A stretch of 64,000 bases of DNA from Eimeria praecox (Eukaryota), in the NCBI GenBank assembly GCA_963920595.1, contig OY986946.1, forward strand, positions 124,001 to 188,000, in the 5' to 3' direction. Below the pieces are notes generated by a model. That model saw only the letters and a program-made list of their open reading frames with translations. It searched no databases and was not told where the DNA came from. The stretch's first letter is position 1. Every line of letters starts with the position of its first letter. This document shows, one piece after another, positions 1 through 64,000 of this stretch. Both the position numbers and the translations under genes were made by a program.

Positions 1-3000
1 GCAGCAACTTGACCAATCGCGTCAAGAAGATGAAATTTCGTTGTACCCATTAGACAGGCTGAAAACTGTTCGAGCACAGAACGCTTTGTTTCTTCGCAGC
101 CCTGGGAGCTAACCATGTGCTTACTCTCTGGCAAGACCAGCACGTGATCGCAATTTCAGAGAAGGCCACTCTGCACTAAACCCGTCAGCGCACTTAGGAG
201 AAATACCCAATTGCATGATGCGCACGCATGCAGAAGCCCTAACTCTTAGCCATACATTGCGTATACATCTATGGGCTGGAGGAGCTGCTTTCAACGAGGC
301 CAACCGAGCCAAGCCAAAGCTTAATACCAAATTCAAAACGATGCGGCTGGCTGCACCCGAAGGGTCCTTCTCAAGTTGTTCGCTTCTGCTCAGAAAGCCA
401 ACCCAGCACGTTTCGGAAGTATCCAGCGCATGCAAAGTGAAGGCCTGCATATTCCGTGCCTCTGACTAGCATCTGGAGTGCTGCGAACAGTGTCGTACGA
501 GGTGTCAAGCTCGAACGAAAATGAGCGACATGCTTGTAGGCGGCACGCATTGAGGACGCACCAAAGTTCAGTTATTCTAGCCATACAGCAAGCATCAACC
601 GTCGCTAGAGGTTTGGCTTCCTTTTTTATTACCCGGTGCTGTGGAATGCGTTACAGATTCCGCGTTATTTTTTGCAAGCGCCATGAACGTTTACACATGC
701 CATGCTGCCCGCGGCGTCGGAAGCGGTCCGCGCTTTGCTACTCTACCCTTCCACCGAACAACGCCAACAAATATGGCCTAGCCAATCGCCGACATCATTT
801 GCTATATCTGCCCTGTCTGACAAAAGCATATCGCGTATCAAAAGACCCTGCTACAGTAGGGGCTAAAGAGGCTCAGTGATGATGCAAAACGAATTCCTAC
901 TTCTCATAAGGCAAATCTATTACTCTGCCCACAGATGCATACGCATCAATTCTTGTCATCAGTCGCAACTGTAACAGTATCAAGGGAAGTGACAAATGTA
1001 TAAACTTGCTACTGCGTGCACACTTCCTGCAAGAACAGAGAGCAATAGGAACAGCGGAAGAGGCTTTGCAACACCGTGAGAATACTTACTTGCAAACAAG
1101 CTACGCAGACCGCGATGCACACTCATGGGAGCTCGCTAACTTTCCGCCCAATAGTGCACATACTCCTACATGCAAACAAAGCTGATTTCAACCAGCACAA
1201 GCAAACGACGCCCACGCTCACCACCAACCACAAAAATGCTCATTGCATTTGACTTACCTTGTGTTCTCATCGAGCTGCTTCCTGCTGACAGACCACCGGT
1301 GATACGGAAGTTTAGCTGTTAGGAAGGTATAGCACTCACGTGGATTAAGGGGCTTCATAGCAATCGCCCCCCATTAGTGAATGGCGCTACCAGCTGGTGG
1401 CTGGGAGACTGCGGCCTTGAGGGAATACCAGCAACACATTTGGAGGCCCCGCCTACTTCAAACGCAAAACAGGTTAAATACTCTTGATAAACCAGAATGA
1501 CAAGCCTTCACTACGAGTTCCACCTTATGTGCTACTTAATAGCTTTACGTGGGCTGCCGTTTTGACATCCTCTTGTGCAAGCGCCCGTCCGGATCTACGC
1601 AAGCACAGTGTTCGAGTGTTGGCCGGCCCATAAGGGCCATACGGGCCCTTCCCTGTTCCCACTCTCCGCGGCAGAGCTGCTGTTACACATCCCCGGAGTA
1701 CACACCAATAATACTGAACCGGTGTAGCACAAGTCATCGAGTTAGCACGGTTTCCTCCTTCCACGTGTTGTGCTGCACATCTACTGTCCCATCGATTCAC
1801 TCACATCGCTTGTACTGAAAGACCCTGCCCCGCAAGCGCAGGTCACGTATCGAAACTCCTCGCTCCAGTAAAACCCCAAAGAAACCATGGCTGAAACAAC
1901 GCGAATTCGCGCTTCTTCTAGCACTGCATCTCCCCAAATATGCGCGCATGCAGATACACCGATGCTTGTCATCAAGTAAGCTGAAACCTATCCACACCCA
2001 AGACCGCGCCGAGCTGACACTTTTGTTTCTAGCTGCGTACTTTCTGGGAGCACCAGTGCTCGCTTGTACTGTTACCAAAGGCCTTGCCGCACCTAGCCCC
2101 TGCAGGCGCGCACACAGACTACAGAACCATACGATGCTCACACGTGCAGGCCCGATAGCTCTTTGCCAAACTATGCGAATATACCAATCTGCGAACGTAG
2201 GTATATTTGGTCAGCACAGCGAGACTAAGCGAAAGCTTGACGCGAATTGCCAGACGATGCAGCTGGGTGCCCGGGGCGTGTTTTTCGGTGTTTGCCGCAT
2301 CCTTCTGCAAGAACAACGGTGCGTGTAGACGTTGCAGACATTCTGGAGACATTAAGCGCGTGCAGGCCCAGCGTCCGCTTCCCGTTTTCCTCTGTTGCAC
2401 TGCTATCAGTTGCTTGCTGTGAAATTCCAAGCTCGAACGAAAAGGAGTACCACAGTCATAGGGCCAACCTGCCACACACAAAAAGCAAGCTAAGTATTCT
2501 TGCCAATGAAGAAACATCCACCTGCGTTGCTTGTTCCCCGTTCGTCTGTGTTATCCAGTGGCTGCCCAACGAGTTCCGGGTTCTGCTATTTGTTACGCAG
2601 GCGCCAAGCGGACGTACATAACTTGTGTCCTTGGCGCCTTCGGGGGCTGCTCGGCATTCGCTATTCTTGTCGTTCCAGAACAACAGCCATCACACATAAC
2701 CCAGCTGACCCTCAATGCTACGGAGCCTTTAGCGCACGCCCCAAGCCCCCGCGTAGTTACAGCACTCTCCAACCACATATGGCTTTCACATATACCGCCT
2801 CGTCAATTAGCTGATGTCATCTACCAAGCCATACTCCGTCTGGGAAATGCAGATCGCTTTTCCCAACCCAGCATCCCTGTAATAGCCAACGTAAAACAAG
2901 GTTATAGCCACAGGAGCGCCCTACAGCTCCTCTACGTGCAGCTCCAGAAATCTACAAGCGCCTATAGGCGCACCCGTGCCTCGCCTAAGAAGGCGTCAAT

Positions 3001-3001
3001 G
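1..3001. repeat. Representative 3001-bp unit composed of three diverged ~1-kb monomers (A, B, C)
   Basis: Homologous blocks recur three times per unit. Core motif: gcttactctctgg (119), gcacacttcctgc (1018), gcgtactttctgg (2035). Second block: gctgctttcaacgag...aagcttaatacc (~283), gctgatttcaaccag...acgctcaccacc (~1181), ggtatatttggtcag...aagcttgacgcg (~2200). Third block: agttcagttattctagcc (~566), aggttaaatactcttgat (~1471), aagctaagtattcttgcc (~2487). Confidence 0.85.
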
Positions 3002-4823
3002 GCAGCAACTTGACCAATCGCGTCAAGAAGATGAAATTTCGTTGTACCCATTAGACAGGCTGAAAACTGTTCGAGCACAGAACGCTTTGTTTCTTCGCAG
3101 CCCTGGGAGCTAACCATGTGCTTACTCTCTGGCAAGACCAGCACGTGATCGCAATTTCAGAGAAGGCCACTCTGCACTAAACCCGTCAGCGCACTTAGGC
3201 CAACGATCCACAGACGCGCCGCGAAGCACGAACGGGCCCGCGCAGCTCTGACCGACGATGAACACACTGGCACTATACACTCAGTCCTCATAGCCAGTCC
3301 TTTCCCCGAAGTTACGGATCCATTTTACCGACTTCCTTTATCTACGTTCTTCTATCGACCAGGGGCTGCTAACCCTGGAGACATGAACCGGTTAATGGTA
3401 CGGCCAGGGGTGTAAATAACACCTTTCCCCCCTCTTTTCAAGGTCCGTCAGAAGCGCACCAGATTCCCTGCAAGCCAGGAAGCTTTATCAACCAGTCACC
3501 CCTATCTCCAGATAACCTGGTTCCAGGGTAAGCTACTAAAGAGGTTGGTAAAAAGCAAAAACAACGCTTCGCGGGGCTCCCGCCTGCGTCGAGGATTTCA
3601 TTCACGTTACTGTGCAGTATCCGCGTCCTGGCTCAGGACTATTATCCTGATTCCCTTTCGCGAAATACGAGGGCAATAAAGCCCCGCAATTCCCGCAGTC
3701 AAGCGTTCGCTTAGGACAGGCTAAGCCATGTCCAATTGCTGCTCACTTGGAGCCCTTCTTCACTTCAGTCTTCAAAGTTCTCATTTGCATATTTGCTACT
3801 GCCACCAAGATCTGCACTAGAGACCGTTCCATACAGGCTCACGCCCAATGCTTCGCTACCATCCCCACGTCTTCCTACTCATTATCGCAAAAGGTCCAGT
3901 GCTAAAAATTTGCAATAATGGCCTGGTATCGGCAGCTGCCTGTAGCGCCATCCATTTTCAGGGCTGGTTCATTCGGCAGGTAAGTTGTTACACCCTTCTG
4001 CACTTACATTTCGACCCCCATGACCACCGTCCTGCTGTAAAAAATGAACCATCACCTTGTATGGTGTCTGATGAGCGAAACTTTACGCGCCTTAATAAAG
4101 CGTTAGAAGAATCCCTCATCCCCAGTTCTGCTTGCCGAAAATCGCCCACTTTGAGTTCATATTAACTCCAGCAGTTCAAGGAAGTAACCACTGGATCTTA
4201 CCCATTTAACCTTTGAGAATAGGTCGAGGGCAACGCTGACCGGAGGCCTCTAATCATTCGCTTTACCTGATGAAACTAACTGAACTCCAGTCCAGCTATC
4301 CTGAGAGGCACCTCGGAAGAAACCAGATGTCAGACGGTTCGATTAGTCTTTTGCCCCTATATCCAACTTTAACGAACGATTTGCAAGTCAGTATCGCTAC
4401 GACCTTCTTTCATATATACCGCGTCGTCAATTAGCTGATGTCATCTATCGAGCGATACTCCGTCTGGGAAATGCATATCGCTTTTCCCAACCCAGCATCC
4501 CTGTAATAGCCAACGTAAAACAAGGTTATAGCCACAGGAGGGCCCTACAGCTCCTCTACGTGCAGCTCCAGAAATCTACAAGCGCCTATACGCGCACCCA
4601 TGCCTCGCCTAAGAAGGCGTCAATGGCAGCAACTTGACCAATCGCGTCAAGAAGATGAAATTTCGTTGTACCCATTAGACAGGCTGAAAACTGTTCGAGC
4701 ACAGAACGCTTTGTTTCTTCGCAGCCCTGGGAGCTAACCATGTGCTTACTCTCTGGCAAGACCAGCACGTGATCGCAATTTCAGAGAAGGCCACTCTGCA
4801 CTAAACCCGTCAGCGCACTTAGG
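2783..4823. repeat. 417-bp direct repeats (2783-3199 and 4407-4823) bracketing the rDNA fragment; the same arrangement surrounds all five rDNA copies
   Basis: ctttca(c/t)atataccgc...gcacttagg is present on both sides at offset 1624, and 1207 + 417 = 1624. Confidence 0.93.
3200..4406 (-). pseudogene. Degenerate internal fragment (1207 bp) of eukaryotic 28S/LSU rRNA, copy 1
   Basis: The + strand carries reverse complements of LSU core motifs: cccgaagttacggatccatttt, ctactgccaccaagatctgcac (LR7 primer region), gcgccatccattttcagggct...gttgttacac, tatcctgagag (LR5 region), ggttcgattagtctt. It is truncated at both ends, has substitutions at normally invariant positions, and has no 18S, 5.8S or ITS nearby. 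Confidence 0.95.
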
Positions 4824-7800
4824 AGAAATACCCAATTGCATGATGCGCACGCATGCAGAAGCCCTAACTCTTAGCCATACATTGCGTATACATCTATGGG
4901 CTGGAGGAGCTGCTTTCAACGAGGCCAACCGAGCCAAGCCAAAGCTTAATACCAAATTCAAAACGATGCGGCTGGCTGCACCCGAAGGGTCCTTCTCAAG
5001 TTGTTCGCTTCTGCTCAGAAAGCCAACCCAGCACGTTTCGGAAGTATCCAGCGCATGCAAAGTGAAGGCCTGCATATTCCGTGCCTCTGACTAGCATCTG
5101 GAGTGCTGCGAACAGTGTCGTACGAGGTGTCAAGCTCGAACGAAAATGAGCGACATGCTTGTAGGCGGCACGCATTGAGGACGCACCAAAGTTCAGTTAT
5201 TCTAGCCATACAGCAAGCATCAACCGTCGCTAGAGGTTTGGCTTCCTTTTTTATTACCCGGTGCTGTGGAATGCGTTACAGATTCCGCGTTATTTTTTGC
5301 AAGCGCCATGAACGTTTACACATGCCATGCTGCCCGCGGCGTCGGAAGCGGTCCGCGCTTTGCTACTCTACCCTTCCACCGAACAACGCCAACAAATATG
5401 GCCTAGCCAATCGCCGACATCATTTGCTATATCTGCCCTGTCTGACAAAAGCATATCGCGTATCAAAAGACCCTGCTACAGTAGGGGCTAAAGAGGCTCA
5501 GTGATAATGCAAAACGAATTCCTACTTCTCATAAGGCAAATCTATTACTCTGCCCACAGACGCATACGCATCAATTCTTGTCATCAGTCGCAACTGTAAC
5601 AGTATCAAGGGAAGTGACAAATGTATAAACTTGCTACTGCGTGCACACTTCCTGCAAGAACAGAGAGCAATAGGAACAGCGGAAGAGGCTTTGCAACACC
5701 GTGAGAATACTTACTTGCAAACAAGCTACGCAGACCGCGATGAACACTCATGGGAGCTCGCTAACTTTCCGCCCAATAGTGCACATACTCCTACATGCAA
5801 ACAAAGCTGATTTCAACCAGCACAAGCAAACGACGCCCACGCTCACCACCAACCACAAAAATGCTCATTGCATTTGACTTACCTTGTGTTCTCATCGAGC
5901 TGCTTCCTGCTGACAGACCACCGGTGATACGGAAGTTTAGCTGTTAGGAAGGTATAGCACTCACGTGGATTAAGGGGCTTCATAGCAATCGCCCCCCATT
6001 AGTGAATGGCGCTACCAGCTGGTGGCTGGGAGACTGCGGCCTTGAGGGAATACCAGCAACACATTTGGAGGCGCCGCCTACTTCAAACGCAAAACAGGTT
6101 AAATACTCTTGATAAACCAGAATGACAAGCCTTCACTACGAGTTCCACCTTATGTGCTACTTAATAGCTTTACGTGGGCTGCCGTTTTGACATCCTCTTG
6201 TGCAAGCGCCCGTCCGGATCTACGCAAGCACAGTGTTCGAGTGTTGGCCGCCCCATAAGGGCCATACGGGCCCTTCCCTGTTCCCACTCTCCGCGGCAGA
6301 GCTGCTGTTACACATCCCCGGAGTACACACCAATAATACTGAACCGGTGTAGCACAAGTCATCGAGTTAGCACGGTTTCCTCCTTCCACGTGTTGTGCTG
6401 CACATCTACTGTCCCATCGATTCACTCACATCGCTTGTACTGAAAGACCCTGCCCCGCAAGCGCAGGTCACGTATCGAAACTCCTCGCTCCAGTAAAACC
6501 CCAAAGAAACCATGGCTGAAACAACGCGAATTCGCGCTTCTTCTAGCACTGCATCTCCCCAAATATGCGCGCATGCAGATACACCGATGCTTGTCATCAA
6601 GTAAGCTGAAACCTATCCACACCCAAGACCGCGCCGAGCTGACACTTTTGTTTATAGCTGCGTACTTTCTGGGAGCACCAGTGCTCGCTTGTACTGTTAC
6701 CAAAGGCCTTGCCGCACCTAGCCCCTGCAGGCGCGCACACAGACTACAGAACCATACGATGCTCACACGTGCAGGCCCGATAGCTCTTTGCCAAACTATG
6801 CGAATATACCAATCTGCGAACGTAGGTATATTTGGTCAGCACAGCGAGACTAAGCGAAAGCTTGACGCGAATTGCCAGACGATGCAGCTGGGTGCCCGGG
6901 GCGTGTTTTTCGGTGTTTGCCGCATCCTTCTGCAAGAACAACGGTGCGTGTAGACGTTGCAGACATTCTGGAGACATTAAGCGCGTGCAGGCCCAGCGTC
7001 CGCTTCCCGTTTTCCTCTGTTGCACTGCTATCAGTTGCTTGCTGTGAAATTCCAAGCTCGAACGAAAAGGAGTACCACAGTCATAGGGCCAACCTGCCAC
7101 ACACAAAAAGCAAGCTAAGTATTCTTGCCAATGAAGAAACATCCACCTGCGTTGCTTGTTCCCCGTTCGTCTGTGTTATCCAGTGGCTGCCCAACGAGTT
7201 CCGGGTTCTGCTATTTGTTACGCAGGCGCCAAGCGGACGTACATAACTTGTGTCCTTGGCGCCTTCGGGGGCTGCTCGGCATTCGCTATTCTTGTCGTTC
7301 CAGAACAACAGCCATCACACATAACCCAGCTGACCCTCAATGCTACGGAGCCTTTAGCGCACGCCCCAAGCCCCCGCGTAGTTACAGCACTCTCCAACCA
7401 CATATGGCTTTCACATATACCGCCTCGTCAATTAGCTGATGTCATCTACCAAGCCATACTCCGTCTGGGAAATGCAGATCGCTTTTCCCAACCCAGCATC
7501 CCTGTAATAGCCAACGTAAAACAAGGTTATAGCCACAGGAGCGCCCTACAGCTCCTCTACGTGCAGCTCCAGAAATCTACAAGCGCCTATAGGCGCACCC
7601 GTGCCTCGCCTAAGAAGGCGTCAATGGCAGCAACTTGACCAATCGCGTCAAGAAGATGAAATTTCGTTGTACTCATTAGACAGGCTGAAAACTGTTCGAG
7701 CACAGAACGCTTTGTTTCTTCGCAGCCCTGGGAGCTAACCATGTGCTTACTCTCTGGCAAGACCAGCACGTGATCGCAATTTCAGAGAAGGCCACTCTGC

Positions 7801-7824
7801 GCTAAACCCGTCAGCGCACTTAGG

Positions 7825-9031
7825 CCAACGATCCACAGACGCGCCGCGAAGCACGAACGGGCCCGCGCAGCTCTGACCGACGATGAACACACTGGCGCTA
7901 TACACTCAGTCCTCATAGCCAGTCCTTTCCCCGAAGTTACGGATCCATTTTACCGACTTCCTTTATCTACGTTCTTCTATCGACCAGGGGCTGCTAACCC
8001 TGGAGACATGAACCGGTTAATGGTACGGCCAGGGGTGTAAATAACACCTTTCCCCCCTCTTTTCAAGGTCCGTCAGAAGCGCACCAGATTCCCTGCAAGC
8101 CAGGAAGCTTTATCAACCAGTCAACCCTATCTCCAGATAACCTGGTTCCAGGGTAAGCTACTAAAGAGGTTGGTAAAAAGCAAAGACAACGCTTCGCGGG
8201 GCTCCCGCCTGCGTCGAGGATTTCATTCACGTTACTGTGCAGTATCCGCGTCCTGGCTCAGGACTATTATCCTGATTCCCTTTCGCGAAATACGAGGGCA
8301 ATAAAGCCCCGCAATTCCCGCAGTCAAGCGTTCGCTTAGGACAGGCTAAGCCATGTCCAATTGCTGCTCACTTGGAGCCCTTCTTCACTTCAGTCTTCAA
8401 AGTTCTCATTTGCATATTTGCTACTGCCACCAAGATCTGCACTAGAGACCGTTCCATACAGGCTCACGCCCAATGCTTCGCTACCATCCCCACGTCTTCC
8501 TACTCATTATCGCAAAAGGTCCAGTGCTAAAAATTTGCAATAATGGCCTGGTATCGGCAGCTGCCTGTAGCGCCATCCATTTTCAGGGCTGGTTCATTCG
8601 GCAGGTAAGTTGTTACACCCTTCTGCACTTACATTTCGACCCCCATGACCACCGTCCTGCTGTAAAAAATGAACCATCACCTTGTATGGTGTCTGATGAG
8701 CGAAACTTTACGCGCCTTAATAAAGCGTTAGAAGAATCCCTCATCCCCAGTTCTGCTTGCCGAAAATCGCCCACTTTGAGTTCATATTAACTCCAGCAGT
8801 TCAAGGAAGTAACCACTGGATCTTACCCATTTAACCTTTGAGAATAGGTCGAGGGCAACGCTGACCGGAGGCCTCTAATCATTCGCTTTACCTGATGAAA
8901 CTAACTGAACTCCAGTCCAGCTATCCTGAGAGGCACCTCGGAAGAAACCAGATGCCAGACGGTTCGATTAGTCTTTTGCCCCTATATCCAACTTTAACGA
9001 ACGATTTGCAAGTCAGTATCGCTACGACCTT
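7825..9031 (-). pseudogene. 28S/LSU rRNA fragment, copy 2
   Basis: Near-identical to 3200-4406 (offset 4625), with the same junctions. Confidence 0.95.
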
Positions 9032-12000
9032 CTTTCATATATACCGCGTCGTCAATTAGCTGATGTCATCTATCGAGCGATACTCCGTCTGGGAAATGCA
9101 TATCGCTTTTCCCAACCCAGCATCCCTGTAATAGCCAACGTCAAACAAGGTTATAGCCACAGGAGCGCCCTACAGCTCATCTACGTGCAGCTCCAGAAAT
9201 CTACAAGCGCCTATACGCGCACCCATGCCTCGCCTAAGAAGGCGTCAATGGCAGCAACTTGACCAATCGCGTCAAGAAGATGAAATTTCGTTGTACCCAT
9301 TAGACAGGCTGAAAACTGTTCGAGCACAGAACGCTTTGTTTCTTCGCAGCCCTGGGAGCTAACCATGTGCTTACTCTCTGGCAAGACCAGCACGTGATCG
9401 CAATTTCAGAGAAGGCCACTCTGCACTAAACCCGTCAGCGCACTTAGGAGAAATACCCAATTGCATGATGCGCACGCATGCAGAAGCCCTAACTCTTAGC
9501 CATACATTGCGTATACATCTATGGGCTGGAGGAGCTGCTTTCAACGAGGCCAACCGAGCCAAGCCAAAGCTTAATACCAAATTCAAAACGATGCGGCTGG
9601 CTGCACCCGAAGGGTCCTTCTCAAGTTGTTCGCTTCTGCTCAGAAAGCCAACCCAGCACGTTTCGGAAGTATCCAGCGCATGCAAAGTGAAGGCCTGCAT
9701 ATTCCGTGCCTCTGACTAGCATCTGGAGTGCTGCGAACAGTGTCGTACGAGGTGTCAAGCTCGAACGAAAATGAGCGACATGCTTGTAGGCGGCACGCAT
9801 TGAGGACGCACCAAAGTTCAGTTATTCTAGCCATACAGCAAGCATCAACCGTCGCTAGAGGTTTGGCTTCCTTTTGTATTACCCGGTGCTGTGGAATGCG
9901 TTACAGATTCCGCGTTATTTTTTGCAAGCGCCATGAACGTTTACACATGCCATGCTGCCCGCGGCGTCGGAAGCGGTCCGCGCTTTGCTACTCTACCCTT
10001 CCACCGAACAACGCCAACAAATATGGCCTAGCCAATCGCCGACATCATTTGCTATATCTGCCCTGTCTGACAAAAGCATATCGCGTATCAAAAGACCCTG
10101 CTACAGTAGGGGCTAAAGAGGCTCAGTGATAATGCAAAACGAATTCCTACTTCTCATAAGGCAAATCTATTACTCTGCCCACAGATGCATACGCATCAAT
10201 TCTTGTCATCAGTCGGAACTGTAACAGTATCAAGGGAAGTGACAAATGTATAAACTTGCTACTGCGTGCACACTTCCTGCAAGAACAGAGAGCAATAGGA
10301 ACAGCGGAAGAGGCTTTGCAACACCGTGAGAATACTTACTTGCAAACAAGCTACGCAGACCGCGATGCACACTCATGGGAGCTCGCTAACTTTCCGCCCA
10401 ATAGTGCACATACTCCTACATGCAAACAAAGCTGATTTCAACCAGCACAAGCAAACGACGCCCACGCTCACCACCAACCACAAAAATGCTCATTGCATTT
10501 GACTTACCTTGTGTTCTCATCGAGCTGCTTCCTGCTGACAGACCACCGGTGATACGGAAGTTTAGCTGTTAGGAAGGTATAGCACTCACGTGGATTAAGG
10601 GGCTTCATAGCAATCGCCCCCCATTAGTGAATGGCGCTACCATCTGGTGGCTGGGAGACTGCGGCCTTGAGGGAATACCAGCAACACATTTGGAGGCGCC
10701 GCCTACTTCAAACGCAAAACAGGTTAAATACTCTTGATAAACCAGAATGACAAGCCTTCACTACGAGTTCCACCTTATGTGCTACTTAATAGCTTTACGT
10801 GGGCTGCCGTTTTGACATCCTCTTGTGCAAGCGCCCGTCCGGATCTACGCAAGCACAGTGTTCGAGTGTTGGCCGGCCCATAAGGGCCATACGGGCCCTT
10901 CCCTGTTCCCACTCTCCGCGGCAGAGCTGCTGTTACACATCCCCGGAGTACACACCAATAATACTGAACCGGTGTAGCACAAGTCATCGAGTTAGCACGG
11001 TTTCCTCCTTCCACGTGTTGTGCTGCACATCTACTGTCCCATCGATTCACTCACATCGCTTGTAATGAAAGACCCTGCCCCGCAAGCGCAGGTCACGTAT
11101 CGAACCTCCTCGCTCCAGTAAAACCCCAAAGAAACCATGGCTGAAACAACGCGAATTCGCGCTTCTTCTAGCACTGCATCTCCCCGAATATGCGCGCATG
11201 CAGATACACCGATGCTTGTCATCAAGTAAGCTGAAACCTATCCACACCCAAGACCGCGCCGAGCAGACATTCTTGGTTCCAGCTGCGTACTTCCTGAGAG
11301 CACCAGTGCTCGCTTGTACTGTTACCAAAGGCCTTGCCGCATCTAGCCCCTGCAGGCGCGCACACAGACTACAGAACCATACGATGCTCACACGTGCAGG
11401 CCCGATAGCTCTTTGCCAAACTATGCGAATATACCAATCTGCGAACGTAGGTATATTTGGTCAGCACAGCGAGACTAAGCGAAAGCTTGACGCGAATTGC
11501 CAGACGATGCAGCTGGGTGCCCGGGGCGTGTTTTTCGGTGTTTGCCGCATCCTTCTGCAAGAACAACGGTGCGTGTAGACGTTGCAGACATTCTGGAGAC
11601 ATTAAGCGCGTGCAGGCCCAGCGTCCGCTTCCCTTTTTCCTCTGTTGCACTGCTATCAGTTGCTTGCTGTGAAATTCCAAGCTCGAACGAAAAGGAGTAC
11701 CACAGTCATAGGGCCAACCTGCCACACACAAAAAGCAAGCTAAGTATTCTTGCCAATGAAGAAACATCCACCTGCGTTGCTTGTTCCCCGTTCGTCTGTG
11801 TTATCCAGTGGCTGCCCAACGAGTTCCGGGTTCTGCTATTTGTTACGCAGGCGCCAAGCGGACGTACATAACTTGTGTCCTTGGCGCCTTCGGGGGCTGC
11901 TCGGCATTCGCTATTCTTGTCGTTCCAGAACAACAGCCATCACACATAACCCAGCTGACCCTCAATGCTACGGAGCCTTTAGCGCACGCTCCAAGCCCCC

Positions 12001-21000: not shown

Positions 21001-21460
21001 CCCGCATAGTTACAGCACTCTCCAACCACATATGGCTTTCACATATACCGCCTCGTCAATTAGCTGATGTCATCTACCAAGCGATACTCCGTCTGGGAAA
21101 TGCAGATCGCTTTTCCCAAACCAGCATCCCTGTAATACCCAACGTCAAACAAGGTTATAGCCACAGGAGGGCCCTACAGCTCCTCTACGTGCAGCTCCAG
21201 AAATCTACAAGCGCCTATACGCGCACCCGTGCCTCGCTTAAGAAGGCGTCAATGGCAGCAACTTGACCAATCGCGTCAAGAAGATGAAATTTCGTTGTAC
21301 CCATTAGACAGGCTGAAAACTGTTCGAGCACAGAACGCTTTGTTTCTTCGCAGCCCTGGGAGCTAACCATGTGCTTACTCTCTGGCAAGACCAGCACGTG
21401 ATCGCAATTTCAGAGAAGGCCACTCTGCACTAAACCCGTCAGGGCACTTGGGCACTTAGG

Positions 21461-49900: not shown

Positions 49901-50521
49901 GATAACTGGCAAATTGTTCAAGTTGTTCGGGAGTCATCATTTGAATGCAGGCAGATGGTGCTTCGCGTTCGGCTCTGCCTCCTACATTGGGAAGATGCAA
50001 AGGCATACTTTCTGGGCAAGCGAGCGCGCGGCCTAAAGTGCATAGGATTTTGCACAATCTGCCTGGAGATGTGCGCACACATTACTTAGCCCCACTGCCT
50101 TCATACCTGCATTGTGGCTAGCTCGTGCTCAAATACTGCGTATGCGCCTACCGCCAGATGCTGCTTGATCAAAACCAAGCTTTCTACAAATTGCAAAACG
50201 ATGACGCGGGCTCCAGGGGGAGTCCTTAGTGAATTGCTTTCTGGTGAAAAACCAACGAAAATAAGGAATATTCAAGACACGTGAAGCCCCCAGGCGCTCT
50301 GGGTCCTCCTTGCAGCTTGCCTCTGCCTACTAAGCTCAGGCGTTACGAATACAACGTCGTGAGATGCAGTGCACGAACAGAAATGAGTGGCACCTTTGCA
50401 AAGTGCACTTACTCCGAGGACAAAACAGCTTGAGATAATCTGGCCAAACTAGATTAGCTGGCTGCGCTGCTAGTTTGCCGCTTTTTGTCTTGCTAGTAAA
50501 CAATGCTACGGGTTTGCGTTT
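46989..50521. repeat. Recent tandem duplication with 1767-bp period (46989-48754 and 48756-50521), containing two monomer cores
   Basis: Near-identical sequence. ORF pairs 47065/48832, 47606/49373 and 48006/49773 are all offset by 1767. Confidence 0.95.
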
Positions 50522-53500: not shown

Positions 53501-56500
53501 CAATATGCAAAAGAGCCCCCATATCTTACACTCGAACACCACAACACCAGGCACATGCACGTGCGTATCCGTGGCTGTTCTCATACACGCTGATATGCAA
53601 GAGAATCCAGAGCAAAAGCGACAGAATAAATACTCGCCCCCATTGTACCAGAAGGGCTACCAATTAGCCTAGCAGCTAAGCACTCCGCATCTCCGCAGAC
53701 CTGGCATCGAATTATCTGCATACGCTCTGGCCAGAACAGTGCGCAACCGGGACGCCGAAGAAAGCCTAGCAAAGCAGAGCCCATATATGCGCGCATACCA
53801 ACGTCATAAGACCAAGGTGCTCACAGGAGCGGGTCTCCCATCTCTCCACCGAGTACAGCGTATATTTTTCACTGCAAACGGCAAGGCTCTAAGAAGGGCA
53901 AGCGAGCGAAGCGCAAGCCGAGTACTACCAGCAAAAAGATGCAGCGGGCTTCAAAAAGAGTGTCCAACCAGAAGCACACACCGGCATAACAGATTTCGTC
54001 CTCTGCTGTGTTACCCCATAGCTGCGGAATGAGCAATGTATTTCCCGTTTTTTCTGATCAGCGGATTCACATTAGACGTGTTCGTAGGGTTGCCGGCAGC
54101 GGCTCTAACGACCTGTCCCTTACCTTCGCACTGCAACTGCATACGCCTGCATGCATGCACATTCACACCCATGTCTGATGCCATACAGTCTGAAGGGTAT
54201 TAGTTTCCTGCCCATGCGCCGCGAAGCTGGTTCCCATCCCCCATCAATACTAACTACGCAAGCCAGCACGCTCTTTTACGCCAAAGCGTGGCTTCGCCAC
54301 GCGTTGCCCCTGGGCGCAAGGACGTCAACCGCACTACCCCACGATGCTCACATATGCAGGCCGCATACCTCTTTGCGAATGCTGTGCACACCCATTTAGG
54401 CTGAGAGAGCTGATTTCAACAAAACCACACAAACCAAGTCATATATAGGGGTATCAAAACTCTGTGCTACAGTAGATGCCAGAAAATCACGCTATCAAAG
54501 CAAATAAAGGCACCCCGCCTCCTATGATACTGCAACGCCGCCAATCTGAGTTCTTGCGCACACAACTTCATGCCTGCATTCGTACAAGCTGGAATGTAAC
54601 AGTGCCTGTAACGGCGATAACGTGAAGCTGCCTCTGATTCTGTTGGCATGCACCTGCCTGCCCTAATTGCCAAGATAATCGCATCTCTTCTTCTGGGGGA
54701 TCTAATTATCTGCATACTTGCTGAGCAAAACAGTGAATGATTATAACGCCAGAGAAGGTTTTGCCATCCCGTCACCGTAGAGCTGCGCACGGAAACTTCG
54801 TGACCTCACGATGCTGGTCAAAGCTCAAGCTCTCCGACAAGTGCGGCGTATATGCCTTATTGCCAACGGAACTGGTTCTCAAGAAGACAAGCGAACCAAC
54901 CCCGAGCCTAATACGAAATGCCAAAGGGGCAGCTAGATGCAGGGGCCACTCCTGCTGAATAACTGTTTGTTTGAAAGCCAACGAAGTTTGAAAGTGCTGA
55001 TTGCGGGGAACACATGGGCTTGCAGATCGAATGGCTCATTCCCGTTTGCCTCTAGCCAGGATGTCGGAGTATTAACCACACTTCGCCGTGAGATATAGAG
55101 CACGGATGAAGCTGAACAACTCGCTGACGCCTTCTGCTTCCTACGAAAGCAAAACAACTTAGCTAATCTCAGCACACAAGTATCTGCCAGCTGTAGAACG
55201 AGATCTGCTAGGCTTTGTGCTAACAAGCAACTACATAATGCCTGCGAGATCCCCATGATTTTGTGCAGCTACCATGCGGAGTAACACACTTTGTGTGCTG
55301 CCGGGACTATCGGACGCGGTTCGCTGATCGGTATCCCGCATTTCCGCAGGAAATCTCATACCGTCGATAACCAGGGTAACCTTTAATCCTGGTCAAACCT
55401 CCAAACAACTCCCCACCTAGTCTGGGCCTCCTCCGTCCACGTATTGCGCTGCAAATATACAGGCCCCGCAATTCGCTGACATTGTCTGCCATGCCAGGCA
55501 CTTTCTCGCAAGCCTTATCGCATCCCTGGGACAGCATGCCCCAATAAAAAAAGCACCGGCAGGCCTAAAGAGAGTTTTAACTTCTCCTCAAGCTGCAACG
55601 CAATGAATCTATACGCATTCAGAGAGAGACCCTTCCACCTGCCGCGACACAACCGTAAACGGCAACGTGCACACAGCCGCGCCAACAAGATGGCACTTCA
55701 TATCCGCAAGGTTGGCAGCTAATCATGTGCATACTTCCTGGACAAAACACCAAGATAAATGTAACCGCCTCCAGAGGGCTCCCATAAACGCGCAAATGCA
55801 AACCCCCTACCTCTCCATGGACAAACGTCCTCGAAACCAGGGCATGTAAGCAAATCTCATGCATAGCCAATACTGGGATGAGGCAGCTGGATCCATGGGT
55901 CTTCGTCTTCGAATCTCTTCGCACTGAAAGTCCAACAGCTATCGAGCACGTTCAAGATAATGCACATGCATTGCGGGGAAGTAAGCAAGGGATACTGCAT
56001 CACGGTCTGCCCGGATATTGGTGGGAATGCAATACTAATACTATATAGGGATATGACCAGCTCGAAAGAGCATGCATGCTCCAAACACAAAGCAACCCAT
56101 CTACTCTCGCCAAACCAGTAAACCCCGGGTGCACTAGGAGTAACGCTCGCCCCTGTGCTATACAACGGCTACACAATAATTTTGTGGTTCATTATTATTT
56201 TATCGTACATATCATGAGGCGTTACGCATTTCGTATTGACAGGCCTCTAGCCCGCAGCCCGCAGCTTTCTTTTCCTGTTCCTCTGCAGAAAACCTGCCAC
56301 CATACATAACCGGGAAATGGCCACCCCTTAAAAAAAATCCAGACAAAGCAGTGCTTAGGGAATGCCTTCTCCTATCACTTGCTACAATACACGTATACTG
56401 GCTAACTAATTCACCACCAACGTCCATAATATCCTGTGCAGTTTGGAATACGCACATTGCTCACACAGTCCAGGAAAGCAACGCTGTAGCAAAAGCAGCT

Positions 56501-58224
56501 TCCAGATCTTCCGTCGCTGAAACTCATTTTGAGCGTAAGCGCAGACACATCCACTGCTTCAACCAAGCAGCCGCACGCGCAATGACACCCGCACATACCG
56601 GCGATAGTTGATCACGCGCCTTAGTGCATACCTCCTGCTCAAAGCAGCATGCAGTCATAAAGTTAAAAAATGTGCCACCCCACCGCACCCACAGATGTGC
56701 GCACACATACTGAATATCTCCACGGGGTTCAGCTACGCATGCCTCCCAGCTGTCTTCCAAATAATGCGTATATGCCTGTCAACAGACGGAGCGCATATCC
56801 ATAGGGGCAGGCGATCAAAACGCCAAATTAAAACCAACTGCAAAATGATGCAGCTGGGTGGACGGGACCTCCTGGCTGAATCGTTTCGTGCCGAAATACC
56901 AAACCCAACTGAGCAAGTTCCAGAATAAGGTAATGCAGCACGACTACGAAGAAAGGAGCGCCGTTTCGTGCTCTCCAGGACTGCTGGTGGGAGAGTGCTT
57001 CGAACGCCCTGTCGTAGCTCGCCCACCTCCAGCAAGTGTCAGCAACACATTCATAGGGTGCACCTACTCGCAACAGAAAGCAGCGTAAGGAATCATGACA
57101 CAACAAATCCACCTGCGCGCACGTCCAGTTTCTCTGGCTTTTCTGCTAATTAAGGGGCGTGCAATAAGCTGCTTGCCGCCTTCTCGTTTGTGCATGCGCC
57201 ATGCAGATCCACGCAAGCTATACTGGGTGCGCTTCGGGCAGCGACCGGCTGGTCACTGTTGCTGTCCTCTAGAGAACAGCAGACACCAAATTATAGCCAA
57301 GCTCGTTGCCAATTCTACTGAGTCTGTAAAACCCATCACCAAGTAGTCGTTGCCTCCTCCTGCCGCGCATGGTGTTCCAATGCGCAGCAGGTGTACTATT
57401 AGAATTCGCCGGGAATATTCCTATCGCGTATCGAAATACCGTGCATTTGCAGAAACCAAAGACGAGCCCTACTGAAGGAAAAACGGCTCCAATACGTGCG
57501 GCGAAACTCCCCAAATCTGCGCAGACGCTGATACGCATGCATGGCTGCTCCCATACCCGCTGAAACATAGAAGTGCCCAGATTGGCGCCAAAACATTGAC
57601 ATTCGACATTTGTGCTTCAGACGTTCTACAAGCTATTCTTGCTGCTAAATGCTTCGCGTCGCCGCAACCGTCGCTGCCAAGTAGATGCCCACTCTCTGGA
57701 CAAAGTAGTACGCAACGCCAGCGATGCACTCGCCATACTGCGCGCGTAGGAAGCCGCAGATCAACAGCATAGTCCCATAATGCTCATGATGAGCATACGT
57801 GCATACCCCCTTACTCGACGCCGAATACTTTCAACCAGGACAAGCAGAGCAGCACAAACTCAATACTAATTGCACAGTGAAGGGGCTCGGCACGTGCGGC
57901 TGTCTTGTCGAGCCATTTCTTGCTAGAATAACAGCAGAAATGTAAAATGTTCAAGGCGTTCAAGGCGTTCGCGACGCGTGCGTTGCATGCATAACCGAGC
58001 CTGCCTTTGCTTGCCTCCGCTGACTATGGAATCCTGTTACGCCCTTAAACAGGTTCTGGTTTGCGTAGCCAGCAAACGGCAATCACCCTCCCCCAGTTCA
58101 CGCCCCGTTCTCTTTTGCGCTATCTACTAGGTTCGCAGATAGCTACTAGTTCCCCGTTTCGTGAACACGCCCCTTGCAGTTTTGCACAAGTCGAGCAGAC
58201 CGCGCTATCAGCCGCAGTTCGGCC

Positions 58225-61200
58225 TTCGCTAATAACCCTCTTCCGCAGACCTTCCATGCTGTTAAGCGCTCAGCACAAGCCGTACCGCAGTCGTTGCTTC
58301 CTCCTACCACGTACAGCACTCCAAATACAGTCCCACAACTGCACTGGCATCGTGCCTGCCGTCCGGCTCTGTCTCACATAAGCATATACCGTATCGGAAT
58401 GCTTCGCTACGAGAAAAGCCCGACAAAAGCAAGGAAAGAGCAACGGAAGCCGGCTTCGCCTCGCGTTGCAACCCAACAGACGTAAATGCATGCACGTACG
58501 CATCTGTGCTTGGTCTCATGATTGCCAAAATGTAACAGTACCCGTAACGGCGAGACGCAGATTGCGAGGCTTCCACCTGCATACCGTCTTGCAAAAACAG
58601 CGTACGAGTCCAACACCAGAGAGGGCTTCGCTCCACAGCGTTAACTGACGAGCGCACACAATTTGCGCAACCCGACAATGCTCGCACATACTCCTCCCCT
58701 GACTATCCTCCAAATACAGTGTGCGCGCATTTCGGTAGACGGCGCCAATTTCAATCAGGCCAGCAGAACAACGCCCAAGCTCGTTACCAACAGCAGAAAC
58801 AATGCGGCTTGCTGCATGGGGCATTTTTGTTGAGCCCCGTCTTACTGGACAGCTGAAGGAGTCAAAATGGTTCAGTAACCTACATATCGCACTTGAGTTG
58901 GTGCGTGGTGCAACCTGTTCGCCCCATATGCTGATGGAAATACGCTACGAACACCCATTCCCGACACGGTTAACTCGAATGAGCTTCAGCGGCACCACCC
59001 TAGACTCCACCTGCTTGGGAAACGAAACAGCCTAATCAATCTCGCCAAGCCAGGAATGCCTGGCGTCGTTACGGGCTTCGCCATCTTCTGTGTGCCCCAC
59101 TACCTACACAACGAGCCAAGCATTCCGCGTTCTTTTGCGCAAGTGCCACGCGAATCCGCATTACTTTCGTTATATTCACGCTGTTGGCAGCGGCTCGCCC
59201 TTCGCCATTCCTGCTATCCGCAGAACGGCTGTCATCATATATAACCAAAGTGGCCGTCAGTAGTACTACGCCTTTCCTACCAATCATTGCATAGTCGCTG
59301 CACCCCCTACCACGTATGGCAGTGCGCGTACAATGCCACGCCAAACCACTGACGTCGTTTGCAATGCCAGCATTTGTCTCACAAACGCGCACCTGCCATC
59401 CAAGCATCAATAAAAGCCAGAGATGAGCAAGTTTAGAGGAAAACAAGTTGGGATTTCCCACACTGCAACTCTCTCAATCTGCACGCACGCACATACATCC
59501 CCATGCCTCCTGCCATACAAGCTGAAGCGTAACAGCAACCATGTTCGCGTTCACAAAAGAAATATTCCTGTCGACTGCTTCAGACCAGCACAGCATTGTC
59601 CTAGCTGGTATGTTCTTCGCCTCTGCTCAGCTTCACAGCCTTGTTGTGGACACACTTTCTGGGGGAAATAGCGCACAATCGGAACGCCAGAGAAGGCTTT
59701 GCCGCAGCGCGCTCGTGGCAAGCCAGATACAATGTTCACAAACCCTCAGTGCTCGCTTGTGCATGTTCCCTAGTTCATGACCCAATAATGCACAAACCCA
59801 TATCGTCAGGCTGGCCTAAGCAACTTCAAAGCTAAGTGCTAGTAGCAAAACCAAGCGGACCGCAGCATGGGGCATTCGTGCCAGATCGCTCCTTATTAGA
59901 GGACCAACGCCGAGAGATTATATTGAAGACGCTCGTAGAAAAGTAATGGCATACAGGGATATGAACAGGTGCTTGCAGCTTGCCTCTGCGTACTGTGTTA
60001 GTGCGTCAACAACACATTGTAGAGGAATACGAAGCCTGGAGGCGGACGAATAATGAATCCATAAATTGCGCTCACTGTGAACACGGAACAGCCTAACTAG
60101 TCTGGCAAAATCACAAACAAACGCCTGCACTATGGCGTCTGCCTGCTGGTGTGTTGATCAATAACTACACATTGCGATAGGGTGTCTAAGGTTCCCGCCG
60201 CCTCAAGCCTAATGTGAATTTAGACCATTCGGACTGGCCGAAGCTATTCCCGTTGTCTGCACGGCAACTGTTGTAGTACACGAACGGGATAAGCGCGAAT
60301 GCTACTAATTAATATTACTTAGTCTTTAGAAAAATCCTCGGGTAGCTACTGCTTCCCCCACCATATATTGGGCTGCCAATAGAATGACTCACCGATTCTC
60401 TCGCACTGCGCATAATGCCAGGCTCTGTCTCGCAAACGCAAGCCACATATCCAGACATCCTTGTATAGTAAGTACAGCAGAAGATCATACGCCTAGCAAA
60501 GCAAACGCATGCTCCTGCTGACAGCGCTTCTCTACAAATATGCTCACGTGCAGTTACACGCCCACGTCAACCAACAGAAGGCGATAAACGTACGAGGATC
60601 CATACCAAGTGCCAAGCATATCGCTTTGCTTCTAAGTGCATACTTCCTGTGCAAAGCCGCACGGGATAGCAACGCCAGCGAAGGTTTGCCGTAGAACTCC
60701 TGTGGACGAGCTTATCTGAACAGACCAACCCCACGATGCATGCGCATGGTGGGCCCCCAACACTACGCCAAAACAAGATTTATACTCTTATCAGCACACA
60801 ACAATGATTTCAGGTAGGGCAGTCAAACACAGGCAAAACTAAAACAACTGCAACCGCTTGCAAATGGCTGCGCGGGACCCTTCTACTCCAGTCGCTTTGT
60901 GTTGAAAGGCCAGCGGCAATTGACGGCGCTTAGTAAGAGGAAGATATATGACGCGATCTAGGAAAGCGTGCACCGTATTTTTTTCGGATGCTGGGGGCTA
61001 AGTTCGGCCTGTCGCGATATGGGTGGCAGGACAGGACGTTAAGAGCATACTCTCAAATTCTGTATAGCCTGAGCACAAAATAGCCAAAATAGTCTCGCCA
61101 AGCTAGGCACTCCCCAATAGATCGTACGAGCACATATTTGGTTGTCTTGCATATGGCCACAAAATACTCTAAGGGCGCGGCGATCAGTCGTCCAGGCTCC

Positions 61201-64000
61201 AAGCGGGATTTACGCAAGTCGTGCCGATCCTTCAGTCAGGCACGACCCGCCCTGGGCTGTCCCCGCACTCGCCAGAGCAGAAGGTAACGGCTATGTGTTT
61301 GCATGGATCACTCCGTAGTGAATGATTGCTAACTTGTGGCTCCACGCATTTCTACTATCTCACCAGTTGGCAGGCTTCCATTGTACTATTGAACCCTGCG
61401 CACGTATACTGCCTGATCAATTCACTGGCATTGGGCGGGCCGCTGGTCGTTGCCTTGCTAACGCATGCAGCATATGGAACGCCTCCATAGAAGCCAAATC
61501 TGTGCACTCTTAAAGCAAAAGTGGCTTGTACCTCCCCTCAAACTGCAACGCCACGAGCTACGCGCATAGACAGACACATCCACCGCTGCTCCCATACAAT
61601 CTGAAACACAGCGGTATCCATCGCAATCTGAAAAATAGCAGTATGCATCGAAAGGATGAATTTCTTCTGATGGTTGTAGACTAACCTGAAACTGATGTGG
61701 TTGCTAGGGGTTCCGCATCTGTGCAACTCTGGCGGCTATTTTCCTGCACACTGCCTGGCAAAAATGGTGCTTTTTCCTAGCGCGAGGAAATAATTCAAAA
61801 CCACCCACCCGTAGACACGCGCAGGCAAACAACACACCCAAACCGCGTTCACACCTGCTGATTCTCTGGGGTTGCAGTAAATAGTGCGATTGCCTCTGTA
61901 TACAGACGAAGCTATTTTAGACCACGCCATACTAAGCCAACCCCATGCCTGATTCCAATCTCAATGCAATAGCAGCATAGCGGTGCAAACACTGGCATGG
62001 GGCGTCCTTCGGCAATCACTGCCAATGCGCGGAAAAAGCTAACTAGCGTGCGCTATTTTACCCTTCTTGTTAAAGCATATCGAATGGTGCTGCGAAGCAA
62101 CTAGCCGTCTCTCAACAGCCGAAGGACAGATAGTTTGAGAGAATGCCAATAACGTATTTACTGTTTACAACTACCCCGAGGACAAAAGGGTGAACTCTAA
62201 CAGAACGACCAGAAACACCAGTCTGGACTACGATTTCTGCTTCCCCTTGTACTGCCATTTAGGCGCACAGTGTGCAACGTGTTCGTCGCTCCTGTGCACA
62301 GGCCCCATGCCTGCTTACCCGATTCGGGCACACCCTGCAATCGGTCGTAGTTGGACCATCGCTAATAACCTTCTTCCGGAGACCTTACAGCGCTCCAAAT
62401 ACAGTCCTACACAAATGCACTGACATCGTGCCTGTCGTCCGGCTCTGCCTCACATAAGCATATCCCGTATCGGAGTGCTTCGCTACGAGAAAAGCCCGAC
62501 AAAAGCAAGGAAAGAGCAACGGAAGCCGGCTTCGCCTCGCGTTGCAACCCAACAGACGTAAATGCATGCACGTACGCATCTGTGCTTGGTCTCATGATTG
62601 CCAAAATGAACCAGATTGCTTGGGTTCCACTTCCATACTCTCTGGAAAAGACAGTGTACGAGTCCAACACCAGAGAGGGCTTCGCTCCACAGCGTTAACT
62701 GACGAGCGCACACAATTTGCGCAACCCGACAATGCTCGCACATACTCCTCCCCTGACTATCCTCCAAATACAGTGTGCGCGCATTTCGGTAGACGGCGCC
62801 AATTTCAATCAGGCCAGCAGAACAACGCCCAAGCTCGTTACCAACAGCAGAAACAATGCGGCTTGCTGCATGGGGCATTTTTGTTGAGCCCCGTCTTACT
62901 GGACAGCTGAAGGAGTCAAAATGGTTCAGTAACCTACATATCGCACTTGAGTTGGTGCGTGGTGCAACCTGTTCGCCCCATATGCTGATGGAAATACGCT
63001 ACGAACACCCATTCCCGACACGGTTAACTCGAATGAGCTTCAGCGGCACCACCCTAGACTCCACCTGCTTGGGAAACGAAACAGCCTAATCAATCTCGCC
63101 AAGCCAGGAATGCCTGGCGTCGTTACGGGCTTCGCCATCTTCTGTGTGCCCCACTACCTACACAACGAGCCAAGCGTTCCGCGTTCTTTTGCACAAGTGC
63201 CACGCGAATCCGCATTACTTTCGTTATATTCACGCTGTTGGCAGCGGCTCGCCCTTCGCCATTCCTGCTATCCGCAGAACGGCTGTCATCATATATAACC
63301 AAAGTGGCCGTCAGTAGTACTACGCCTTTCCTACCAATCATTGCATAGTCGCTGCACCCCCTACCACGTATGGCAGTGCGCGTACAATGCCACGCCAAAC
63401 CACTGACGTCGTTTGCAATGCCAGCATTTGTCTCACAAACGCGCACCTGCCATCCAAGCATCAATAAAAGCCAGAGATGAGCAAGTTTAGAGGAAAACAA
63501 GTTGGGATTTCCCACACTGCAACTCTCTCAATCTGCACGCACGCACATACATCCCCATGCCTCCTGCCATACAAGCTGAAGCGTAACAGCAACCATGTTC
63601 GCGTTCACAAAAGAAATATTCCTGTCGACTGCTTCAGACCAGCACAGCATTGTCCTAGCTGGTATGTTCTTCGCCTCTGCTCAGCTTCACAGCCTTGTTG
63701 TGGACACACGTTCTGGGGAAAATAGCGCACAATCGGAACGCCAGAGAAGGCTTTGCCGCAGCGCGCTCGTGGCAAGCCAGATACAATGTTCACAAACCCT
63801 CAGTGCTCGCTTGTGCATATTCCCTAGTTCATGACCCAATAATGCACAAACCCATATCGTCAGGCTGGCCTAAGCAACTCCAAAGCTAAGTGCTAGTAGC
63901 AAAACCAAGCGGACCGCAGCATGGGGCATTCGTGCCAGATCGCTCCTTACTAGAGGACCAACGCCGAGAGATTATATTGAAGACGCTCGTAGAAAAGTAA
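58225..64000. repeat. Recent duplication with ~4054-bp period (about 58225-59946 repeated at about 62359-64000, running off the window)
   Basis: ORF pairs 58802/62856, 59056/63110, 59423/63477 and 59641/63695 are offset by 4054. The upstream part is offset by 4076 (58466/62542) because of indels. Confidence 0.92.

What the first reader, a model, noticed from the sequence alone, without database searches (positions are those of the whole stretch)
125..63712. Candidate gene built from dozens of 3-nt micro-exons, one per ~1-kb repeat
SEEN: the monomers are so diverged that they are hard to align, yet each keeps + strand AC-NNN-CT, i.e. minus-strand AG|NNN|GT. Leftmost + coordinate of each triplet, with its minus-strand reading, right to left: 63710 AAC, 62639 AGA, 61752 GCA, 60644 GAA, 59656 AAA, 58585 ACG, 57693 AGA, 56632 GAG, 55735 GAA, 54718 CAA, 54251 TTA, 53724 AGC, 52685 AGC, 51675 AAA, 50986 GGA, 50009 AAA, 49681 AGA, 48242 AAA, 47914 AGA, 46817 GAA, 46114 GAA, 44554 GAA, 43607 GAA, 43355 CAA, 42153 AAA, 41118 GAC, 40531 AAA, 39908 GAA, 39027 CAA, 38393 AGA, 37603 AGA. 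Another 35 lie in the young array (e.g. 2041 AAA, 1024 GAA, 125 AGA). Donor-side sequences are GTATG, GTAAG, GTACG, GTGTG, GTGCG, GTGGG and GTCTG, so +5 G is kept; the only exception is 54251 (GTATT). Acceptors are mostly CAG, with TAG twice and AAG twice. Two very decayed copies (44554, 54251) were located by flanking homology rather than by the motif and still keep AG and GT, which argues against pure ascertainment bias. KNOWN: GT, +3 purine, +5 G and YAG are the constrained positions of U2-type spliceosomal introns, and micro-exon genes with short symmetric exons exist in Schistosoma. INFERENCE: the repeat is a tandemly amplified intron plus single-codon exon module. I know of no described gene with so long a run of uniform 3-nt exons.
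Basis: partly seen in the sequence, partly recalled or inferred. Interest (0 to 1): 0.92.

Follow-up and report, generated by a model that had tools for sequence, protein, structure and literature searches.

The report
Sixty-six three-base exons in tandem
A 64-kb stretch of a eukaryotic genome is a head-to-tail repeat of about 1 kb in which only the splice-signal letters around a three-base gap stayed constant in all 66 copies, so it is likely a gene segment written one amino acid per exon, although its splicing is still untested.

Summary
Confirmed on DNA. The window is one tandem array of a ~1.08-kb monomer on the minus strand, with AG-NNN-GT at all 66 monomer junctions (+5 G in 65). The old monomers are about 48% alike and radiate star-like, yet AG, GT and +5 G are the only fully invariant columns (0 of 961 interior columns). 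Keeping AG and GT by chance in 31 lineages is about 1e-24. Flanks alone find the junction exactly in 25 of 31 leave-one-out tests, so this is not cherry-picking. The triplets avoid T (1 of 31 lineages, about 7 expected) and lean to Glu/Arg/Lys/Gln codons: a modest coding signal. Best reading: working spliceosomal introns around 3-nt exons that encode a charged low-complexity tract, grown by intron-plus-exon duplication. Splicing, reading phase, gene ends and organism (probably a coccidian parasite) are not shown. Closest in print: flatworm micro-exon genes and the SmPoMuc 1-kb exon repeat; my searches found no run of 3-nt exons. This scan noted similar one-codon arrays, with short introns, in other genomes.

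The parts
1..64000 (-). Tandem array of a ~1.08-kb monomer (predicted intron plus 3-nt exon); runs off both window edges
   Evidence: Profile tiling, 89% coverage, minus strand only
37603..63712 (-). Old part: 31 predicted 3-nt exons, leftmost + coordinates 63710, 62639, 61752, 60644, 59656, 58585, 57693, 56632, 55735, 54718, 54251, 53724, 52685, 51675, 50986, 50009, 49681, 48242, 47914, 46817, 46114, 44554, 43607, 43355, 42153, 41118, 40531, 39908, 39027, 38393, 37603
   Evidence: predicted introns 249-1557 nt
125..37404 (-). Young part: higher-order repeat of three monomers (A, B, C), copies 97-99% alike, 35 predicted exons: A x10 (GAA 7, AAA 3), B x10 (GAA), C x15 (AGA); order ABCABC[r]CABC[r]CABC[r]CABCABCABCABC[r]CABC[r]CABC
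30854..31960 (-). Decayed 28S rRNA fragment inside a C-to-C intron; five such long introns ([r]) in the young array
   Evidence: Rfam RF02543, E 1e-175, on this copy; count of long introns; near-identity of the copies
54251..54253 (-). Aberrant exon TTA: the only one with T, the only one without +5 G, TAG acceptor; possibly no longer used
43355..43357 (-). Exon CAA whose upstream acceptor region is replaced by a deletion; weakest acceptor score, TAG
46989..50521 (-). Recent 1,767-base tandem duplication carrying two exons (50009/49681 and 48242/47914), 9 differences, none in exons or splice sites
58312..64000 (-). Recent duplicate or converted pair (62386-64000 vs 58312-59946); the exons differ between the copies

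Best explanation
The window is a tandem array of 66 homologous ~1-kb units joined at AG-NNN-GT, and it likely is the middle of one protein-coding gene in which each unit is a working spliceosomal intron followed by a three-base exon that would add one residue to a charged, low-complexity (Glu/Lys/Arg/Gln) tract. Shown: homology of the units, invariance of the splice-signal letters, two ages of expansion. Inferred: (1) an intron plus a 3-nt exon was amplified long ago; any copy number keeps the frame; (2) intron interiors drift, delete and even take up a 1.2-kb rDNA fragment, while selection keeps AG, GT and +5 G; (3) a 3-nt exon is too small to be defined across, so each intron would be recognised by its own ends and removed in turn (established splicing knowledge, recalled); (4) most exons would be included, giving 66 residues from 63.6 kb; exons without T can form no stop codon in any phase or skipping pattern; (5) unequal crossing-over and short conversion patches change tract length and single residues. 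Phase 0 (Glu 25, Arg 21, Lys 9, Gln 3 of 66) is my preferred frame, at about even odds against the other two together.
For: Invariance: 0 of 961 interior columns invariant at full occupancy, mean majority 0.64, pairwise identity 0.48; AG, GT, +5 G at 22 of 22; chance of keeping AG+GT 0.17 per copy, 1e-23.6 over 31; end branches about 0.46 changes per site, star-like tree. Not ascertainment: flank-only leave-one-out exact in 25 of 31, off by one base in 3; masked profile finds all 66 and no strong extra junction. Orientation and order (pyrimidine run, YAG, three bases, GTRYG) match U2-type sites. The gap is exactly 3 in all 66, though the introns range 249-1629 nt. Exon content: T in 1 of 31 lineages against 6.4-7.2 expected from the intron substitution spectrum; Glu/Lys/Arg/Gln codons 24 of 31 against 16-19; 29 of 30 T-free, p about 0.003. 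First two bases covary (GG 1, AG 8, GA 11, AA 5; Fisher p 0.011), which fits phase 0, and triplet type does not follow the flank tree. The one T-bearing exon is also the one without +5 G. No RNA family other than the rRNA fragment in 29.5-64 kb, no conserved block inside the introns, longest stop-to-stop frame 194 aa.
Against: The coding signals are modest and uncorrected for multiple tests: phase-0 codon enrichment over column shuffles is only p 0.046; missing stops (0 seen, 1.3-2.1 expected) are not significant. T avoidance and the rare third-base G could be splicing constraints (purine-rich exon, avoiding a second NAG or GT) instead of coding ones. The 31 lineages include sister pairs (62639/58585, 43607/43355), and the ancestral triplet is unknown. 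No conserved branch-point adenosine stands out. AG depletion before the acceptor is within the range of interior windows, and deletion ends do not cluster at splice sites (7 of 78 against 5.6). No single-alpha-helix charge pattern in any phase. A few donors and acceptors are weak (44554, 43355, 54251). The young array is too homogeneous to show current selection.
Confidence: 0.6

Rival explanations
1. A variable cassette in the manner of flatworm micro-exon genes: the exons are real but are skipped in many combinations, or only one or a few are chosen per transcript, giving protein variants that differ by single residues.
For: All exons are symmetric, and 65 of 66 lack T, so any skipping pattern keeps an open frame. 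Triplets differ between recent duplicates (63710 vs 59656; 62639 vs 58585; GAA/AAA in type A). This is the described mechanism of MEGs (PMC4350168, passages).
Against: The triplet repertoire is narrow (GAA, AGA, AAA are 54 of 66), poor for diversification. Exon columns are not more variable overall than intron columns. If the host is a coccidian, exon skipping is under 3% of alternative events in Toxoplasma and Plasmodium (PMC8561664, passages).
Confidence: 0.2
2. The sites are spliced but the triplets do not code: they are ratchet-like stepping stones for removing a very long intron in steps, or spacers of a non-coding transcript whose purpose is the long transcription time or the introns themselves.
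For: Only 0.3% of the stretch would be exon. Purine-rich, T-free triplets could be a splicing need. Coding tests are modest.
Against: Recursive sites as described are zero-length AG-GT (recalled); here the gap is always exactly one codon long, never 0, 1, 2 or 4. Covariation of the first two bases fits codons. No Rfam small RNA and no conserved intron block.
Confidence: 0.12
3. A once-functional micro-exon array that is now dead, or a satellite whose constant letters serve a DNA-level role (protein or recombinase site) and only resemble splice sites.
For: The young half behaves like a satellite, with higher-order repeats and rDNA insertions. Exon 54251 looks decayed.
Against: All 31 long terminal branches kept AG and GT, so the constraint lasted through nearly all of the array's history. 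The constant letters are exactly the splice-site ones, in the right order and on one strand, with a free 3-base gap; the motif is not palindromic.
Confidence: 0.08

Closest known systems
Micro-exon genes (MEGs) of Schistosoma, Echinococcus and Hymenolepis (bioRxiv 10.1101/2023.06.21.545858, first third of text read; PMC4350168 and bioRxiv 10.1101/2020.04.08.031872, passages)
   Same: Runs of very short exons divisible by three between long introns; invisible to ordinary gene finders.
   Different: MEGs have 10-20 exons, mostly 15 nt (6-81 nt in the text, 3-81 in the abstract), encode secreted proteins and are reported from flatworms. Here at least 66 exons are all exactly 3 nt and the introns are copies of one monomer.
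SmPoMuc polymorphic mucin genes of Schistosoma mansoni (PMC2576457, passages)
   Same: A ~1-kb genomic unit of one small exon plus flanking intron, repeated in tandem and shaped by gene conversion, builds a low-complexity protein tract.
   Different: Exon of 27 nt (9 residues), at most about 20 units, introns over 93% alike. Here the exon is 3 nt, 66 or more units, and the old introns are about 48% alike.
Isolated 1-15 nt microexons (plants, PMC8831610, passages; 3-nt exons in the dinoflagellate Amphidinium, PMC12584245, passages)
   Same: Exons of 3 nt can be spliced; they occur in all three phases and are mostly missed by annotation.
   Different: The passages seen describe single or at most two adjacent microexons in ordinary genes, not tandem arrays.

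Membership tests
U2-type spliceosomal introns | GT...AG ends with +5 G | tested here: met
   66 of 66 AG and GT, 65 of 66 +5 G; the only invariant columns
U2-type spliceosomal introns | Pyrimidine tract and branch point before the acceptor | tested here: inconclusive
   71% pyrimidine at -13..-4, but AG depletion not beyond interior windows; no conserved branch A seen
U2-type spliceosomal introns | Removal from RNA | not testable with these tools
   Only DNA runs could be laid
Micro-exon genes (operational definition, bioRxiv 10.1101/2020.04.08.031872) | At least 7 exons, at least half under 70 nt and divisible by three, run of at least 4 | tested here: inconclusive
   Met by the DNA model (66 in a row; definition), but the exons are predicted, not shown
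Schistosoma MEGs | 10-20 exons, mostly 15 nt | tested here: not met
   66 or more, all 3 nt
Schistosoma MEGs | Signal peptide; secreted or membrane-anchored product | not testable with these tools
   Gene ends lie outside the window; no whole genome held
Schistosoma MEGs | Variants made by exon skipping | not testable with these tools
   Needs RNA reads
Schistosoma MEGs | Restricted to flatworms | tested here: inconclusive
   Organism is coded; 50.8% GC and TGCATGCA-type words point to a coccidian, an inference only
SmPoMuc-type exon repeat | ~1-kb tandem unit of one exon plus flanking intron | tested here: met
   Median predicted intron 1,014 nt; paper passages
SmPoMuc-type exon repeat | 27-nt exon encoding a 9-residue mucin repeat | tested here: not met
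   3-nt exons, charged residues in every phase

The most novel reading that the evidence does not exclude
A parasite gene whose coding sequence runs for 66 or more consecutive exons of a single codon each, spread over more than 64 kb, all spliced in order: the spliceosome writes a protein tract one amino acid per intron, and tract length and single residues evolve by duplicating or converting whole intron-plus-codon units. With the short-intron arrays noted elsewhere in this scan it would define an undescribed class of gene architecture.
Probability: 0.55. Interest if true: 0.88.

Novelty: new variant of a known kind. Interest (0 to 1): 0.74.

Why it matters
It would be an extreme of gene fragmentation: 198 coding bases in 63.6 kb. 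It makes testable how a spliceosome handles dozens of back-to-back 3-nt exons where exon definition cannot work, and whether order of intron removal is fixed. It suggests that some 'satellites' in protist genomes are hidden coding sequence that no aligner or gene finder reports. Because the introns here are saturated with change, this array gives unusually clean evolutionary evidence that such sites are under selection. If the host is a coccidian parasite, the gene is an unannotated, length-variable charged protein.

Tried and rejected
No whole genome is held, so the gene ends, the phase and orthologues could not be read. Sequencing-run search (one search, kind 'any', 52,001-61,900): 3 runs from 2 studies, no RNA holder listed; this says nothing about expression. 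No read depth was obtained for 1-44,000, so the copy number of the young array is not checked directly. The predicted spliced string and peptide were not searched in any database, so no protein homologue was sought. A 22-letter degenerate junction motif gave 3 single matches in metagenome contigs and 2 in viral contigs; none shows monomer homology: chance. Tandem Repeats Finder misses the array (period limit 500). Other exon sizes: acceptor-donor pairs 0-60 nt apart give 35 at 3 nt and at most 3 at any other length in 30,600-64,000 (matrices trained on the exons, so only the absence of a second class counts); unique cryptic exons cannot be excluded. Intron-hosted small RNAs: no Rfam match at E up to 1 other than 28S. 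Deletion-breakpoint clustering and AG-exclusion tests gave no independent support (global alignment at this divergence is rough). Single-alpha-helix charge periodicity: not found. Hypervariable exon: not supported overall. Literature: ten full-text searches listed no paper on runs of 3-nt exons or on microexons in Eimeria or Toxoplasma; the library lacks most subscription papers, and DeMarco 2010 was seen only as cited by others. Supplementary tables of MEG exon lengths were not seen and could hold shorter runs of 3-nt exons. bioRxiv 10.1101/2024.04.21.590414 (passages) only confirmed that human exons under 30 nt are mostly skipped without special help.
Full report
OBSERVATION. A position matrix trained on 32 of them, with AG, triplet, GT and +5 masked, returned 66 sites above score 5, every one AG-NNN-GT: 31 in the old part and 35 in the young part. 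Acceptors are CAG 62, TAG 2, AAG 2; donors GTATG 18, GTAAG 16, GTGTG 15, GTACG 13 and four singletons. +5 G holds in 65 of 66. CAG-N(k)-GTRYG counts 57 at k=3 on the minus strand, 1-15 at the other spacings, and 0 at k=3 on the plus strand. Short-read contigs of two studies cover 44,001-64,000 almost fully, with a 7,938-base contig identical in two runs.

ANATOMY. The sequence between triplets is one monomer family over its whole length: pairs align collinearly at about 56-65% in local matches, and a 1,081-position profile tiles the window head to tail, 89% covered, all 85 hits on the minus strand. Predicted introns are 249-1,629 nt, median 1,014; short ones have internal deletions, long ones internal duplications or an insert. 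Positions 1-37,404 are a young higher-order array of three monomers, 97-99% alike. Five C-to-C introns are long; the one scanned holds a decayed 28S rRNA fragment, and the copies are near-identical. There is no long reading frame in 29,000-64,000 (95 stop-to-stop frames of 90 aa or more, longest 194). Contigs with family-like pieces whose loose ends are absent from the window indicate more monomers outside it.

IS IT SELECTION? In an alignment of 22 chosen near-full-length, non-redundant units (of 65 introns), mean majority per column is 0.64 and mean pairwise identity 0.48; of 961 interior columns none is invariant at full occupancy (one is invariant with 2 rows gapped), while AG, GT and +5 G are 22 of 22. 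The flank tree of 31 junctions (recent duplicates left out) is star-like, 2 of 28 inner branches well supported, median end branch 0.46. At the background rate a copy keeps AG and GT with probability 0.17; 31 copies, 1e-23.6. Ascertainment was tested twice. A junction profile with the motif masked finds all 66 sites; 14 further hits are partial, E 0.087-9, 8 of them on the wrong strand, though the weakest true sites (43355, 39908) score in that same range. Leave-one-out location from flanks alone is exact in 25 of 31, one base off in 3, wrong in 3. Two further tests gave no support: AG depletion before the acceptor (2 against 21 in -13..-4) lies within the spread of interior windows, and deletion ends do not cluster at the sites (7 of 78 against 5.6). 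No branch-point adenosine stands out.

IS IT CODING? The 66 triplets are GAA 24, AGA 21, AAA 9, CAA 3, AGC 2 and seven singletons. T occurs in one triplet of 31 lineages, against 6.4-7.2 expected if GAA, AAA or AGA had drifted like the introns; Glu/Lys/Arg/Gln codons are 24 of 31 against 16-19; a 30-lineage version gave p about 0.003 for T-free exons. That one triplet (54251, TTA) is also the only one without +5 G, as if both constraints lapsed together. The first two bases covary (GG 1, AG 8, GA 11, AA 5; p 0.011), expected if they are the first two bases of a codon; enrichment over column shuffles is p 0.046. Read in phase 0 the tract is Glu 25, Arg 21, Lys 9, Gln 3, no stop; shifted by one base it is Lys 32, Glu 21 with one stop that vanishes if 54251 is skipped; shifted by two it is Lys 27, Arg 26, no stop. 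Net charges are +4, +13 and +52, with no helix-type charge periodicity. Against phase 0, the third base is rarely G although that would be silent (2 of 30 against 5.4); avoiding a competing NAG acceptor could explain this. These signals are modest, uncorrected, and partly explicable by splicing needs.

ORGANISM. Names are coded. GC is 50.8%; E. tenella has 51.6% (PMC11912684, passages). GCATGCA is the commonest 7-mer of the old part (28; about 3 expected by my arithmetic), TGCATGCA occurs 5 times and AAACCCT 6 times there. PMC3505466 (passages) calls TGCATGCA peculiar to a subset of apicomplexans. One run's contigs total 67.5 million letters. A coccidian is my inference (about 60%); the monomers are homologous, so these counts are not independent. 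Median introns of Eimeria and Neospora are 183-433 nt (PMC4287421, passages), shorter than here.

MECHANISM. Best reading (0.6): the middle of a protein-coding gene in which each unit is an intron plus a one-residue exon, mostly included, each intron recognised by its own ends. A symmetric 3-nt exon lets the unit be duplicated or deleted freely, and T-free exons cannot make a stop. Recent events are visible: a 1,767-base duplication, the young array, and a pair of 99%-alike introns whose junctions differ by 11 substitutions in 36 bases plus a 21-base indel, the mark of a short conversion patch or a spared junction. Rivals: MEG-like skipping cassette (0.2; exon skipping is under 3% of alternative events in Toxoplasma and Plasmodium, PMC8561664, passages); non-coding or ratchet splicing (0.12; no Rfam small RNA; no conserved intron block, best interior 12-column window 0.775 against 0.856 at the junction); dead or DNA-level motif (0.08). 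Taken together, about 0.9 that these are or were splice sites under selection.

COMPARISON. It would meet the operational MEG definition but differs from Schistosoma MEGs in exon number, size and tandem homology. SmPoMuc has the same 1-kb exon-plus-intron repeat with a 27-nt exon and up to about 20 units. Single 3-nt exons are known. Ten searches listed no description of a long run of 3-nt exons; the library is incomplete. Earlier notes of this scan describe similar arrays of 17-32 one-codon exons with 67-184-base units in other genomes; they are unchecked AI notes, not support, and one reports RNA backing for only two exons. No note or look-alike exists for this genome.

VERDICT. Real, well supported as splice sites by evolutionary conservation, unproven at the RNA and protein level. 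New variant of a known kind; interest 0.74, 0.88 if the full one-codon-per-exon chain is shown.

Noticed in passing
window 30854-31960 (-) and the four other long C-to-C introns of the young array: A ~1.2-kb decayed 28S rRNA fragment sits inside a predicted intron and was amplified with it; the acceptor side keeps only about 70 bases of the monomer.
   Followed up: partly
window 62609-62655 vs 58533-58601: Two otherwise 99%-alike duplicates differ by 11 substitutions in 36 bases and a 21-base indel exactly around the exon; a smaller cluster of differences follows type A exons in the young array. Suggests junction-sized conversion patches.
   Followed up: partly
window 45079-45614: A 536-base piece, 93% alike to the young type A intron, lies inside an old intron. 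Contig depth there is about 13-14 times that of its neighbours, a weak hint of a few more young units outside the window; the tool warns depth is no copy number.
   Followed up: partly
window 43355-43364: After a deletion the acceptor region is replaced, yet a TAG still stands directly before the triplet; possibly a newly recruited acceptor.
   Followed up: no
window 1-64000: Steady strand asymmetry (GC skew about -0.13, AT skew about +0.07 on the + strand), inherited from the monomer or from long minus-strand transcription.
   Followed up: no
window 44001-64000: Runs of two studies ten years apart carry nearly identical sequence here, as expected of a clonal or laboratory line.
   Followed up: no
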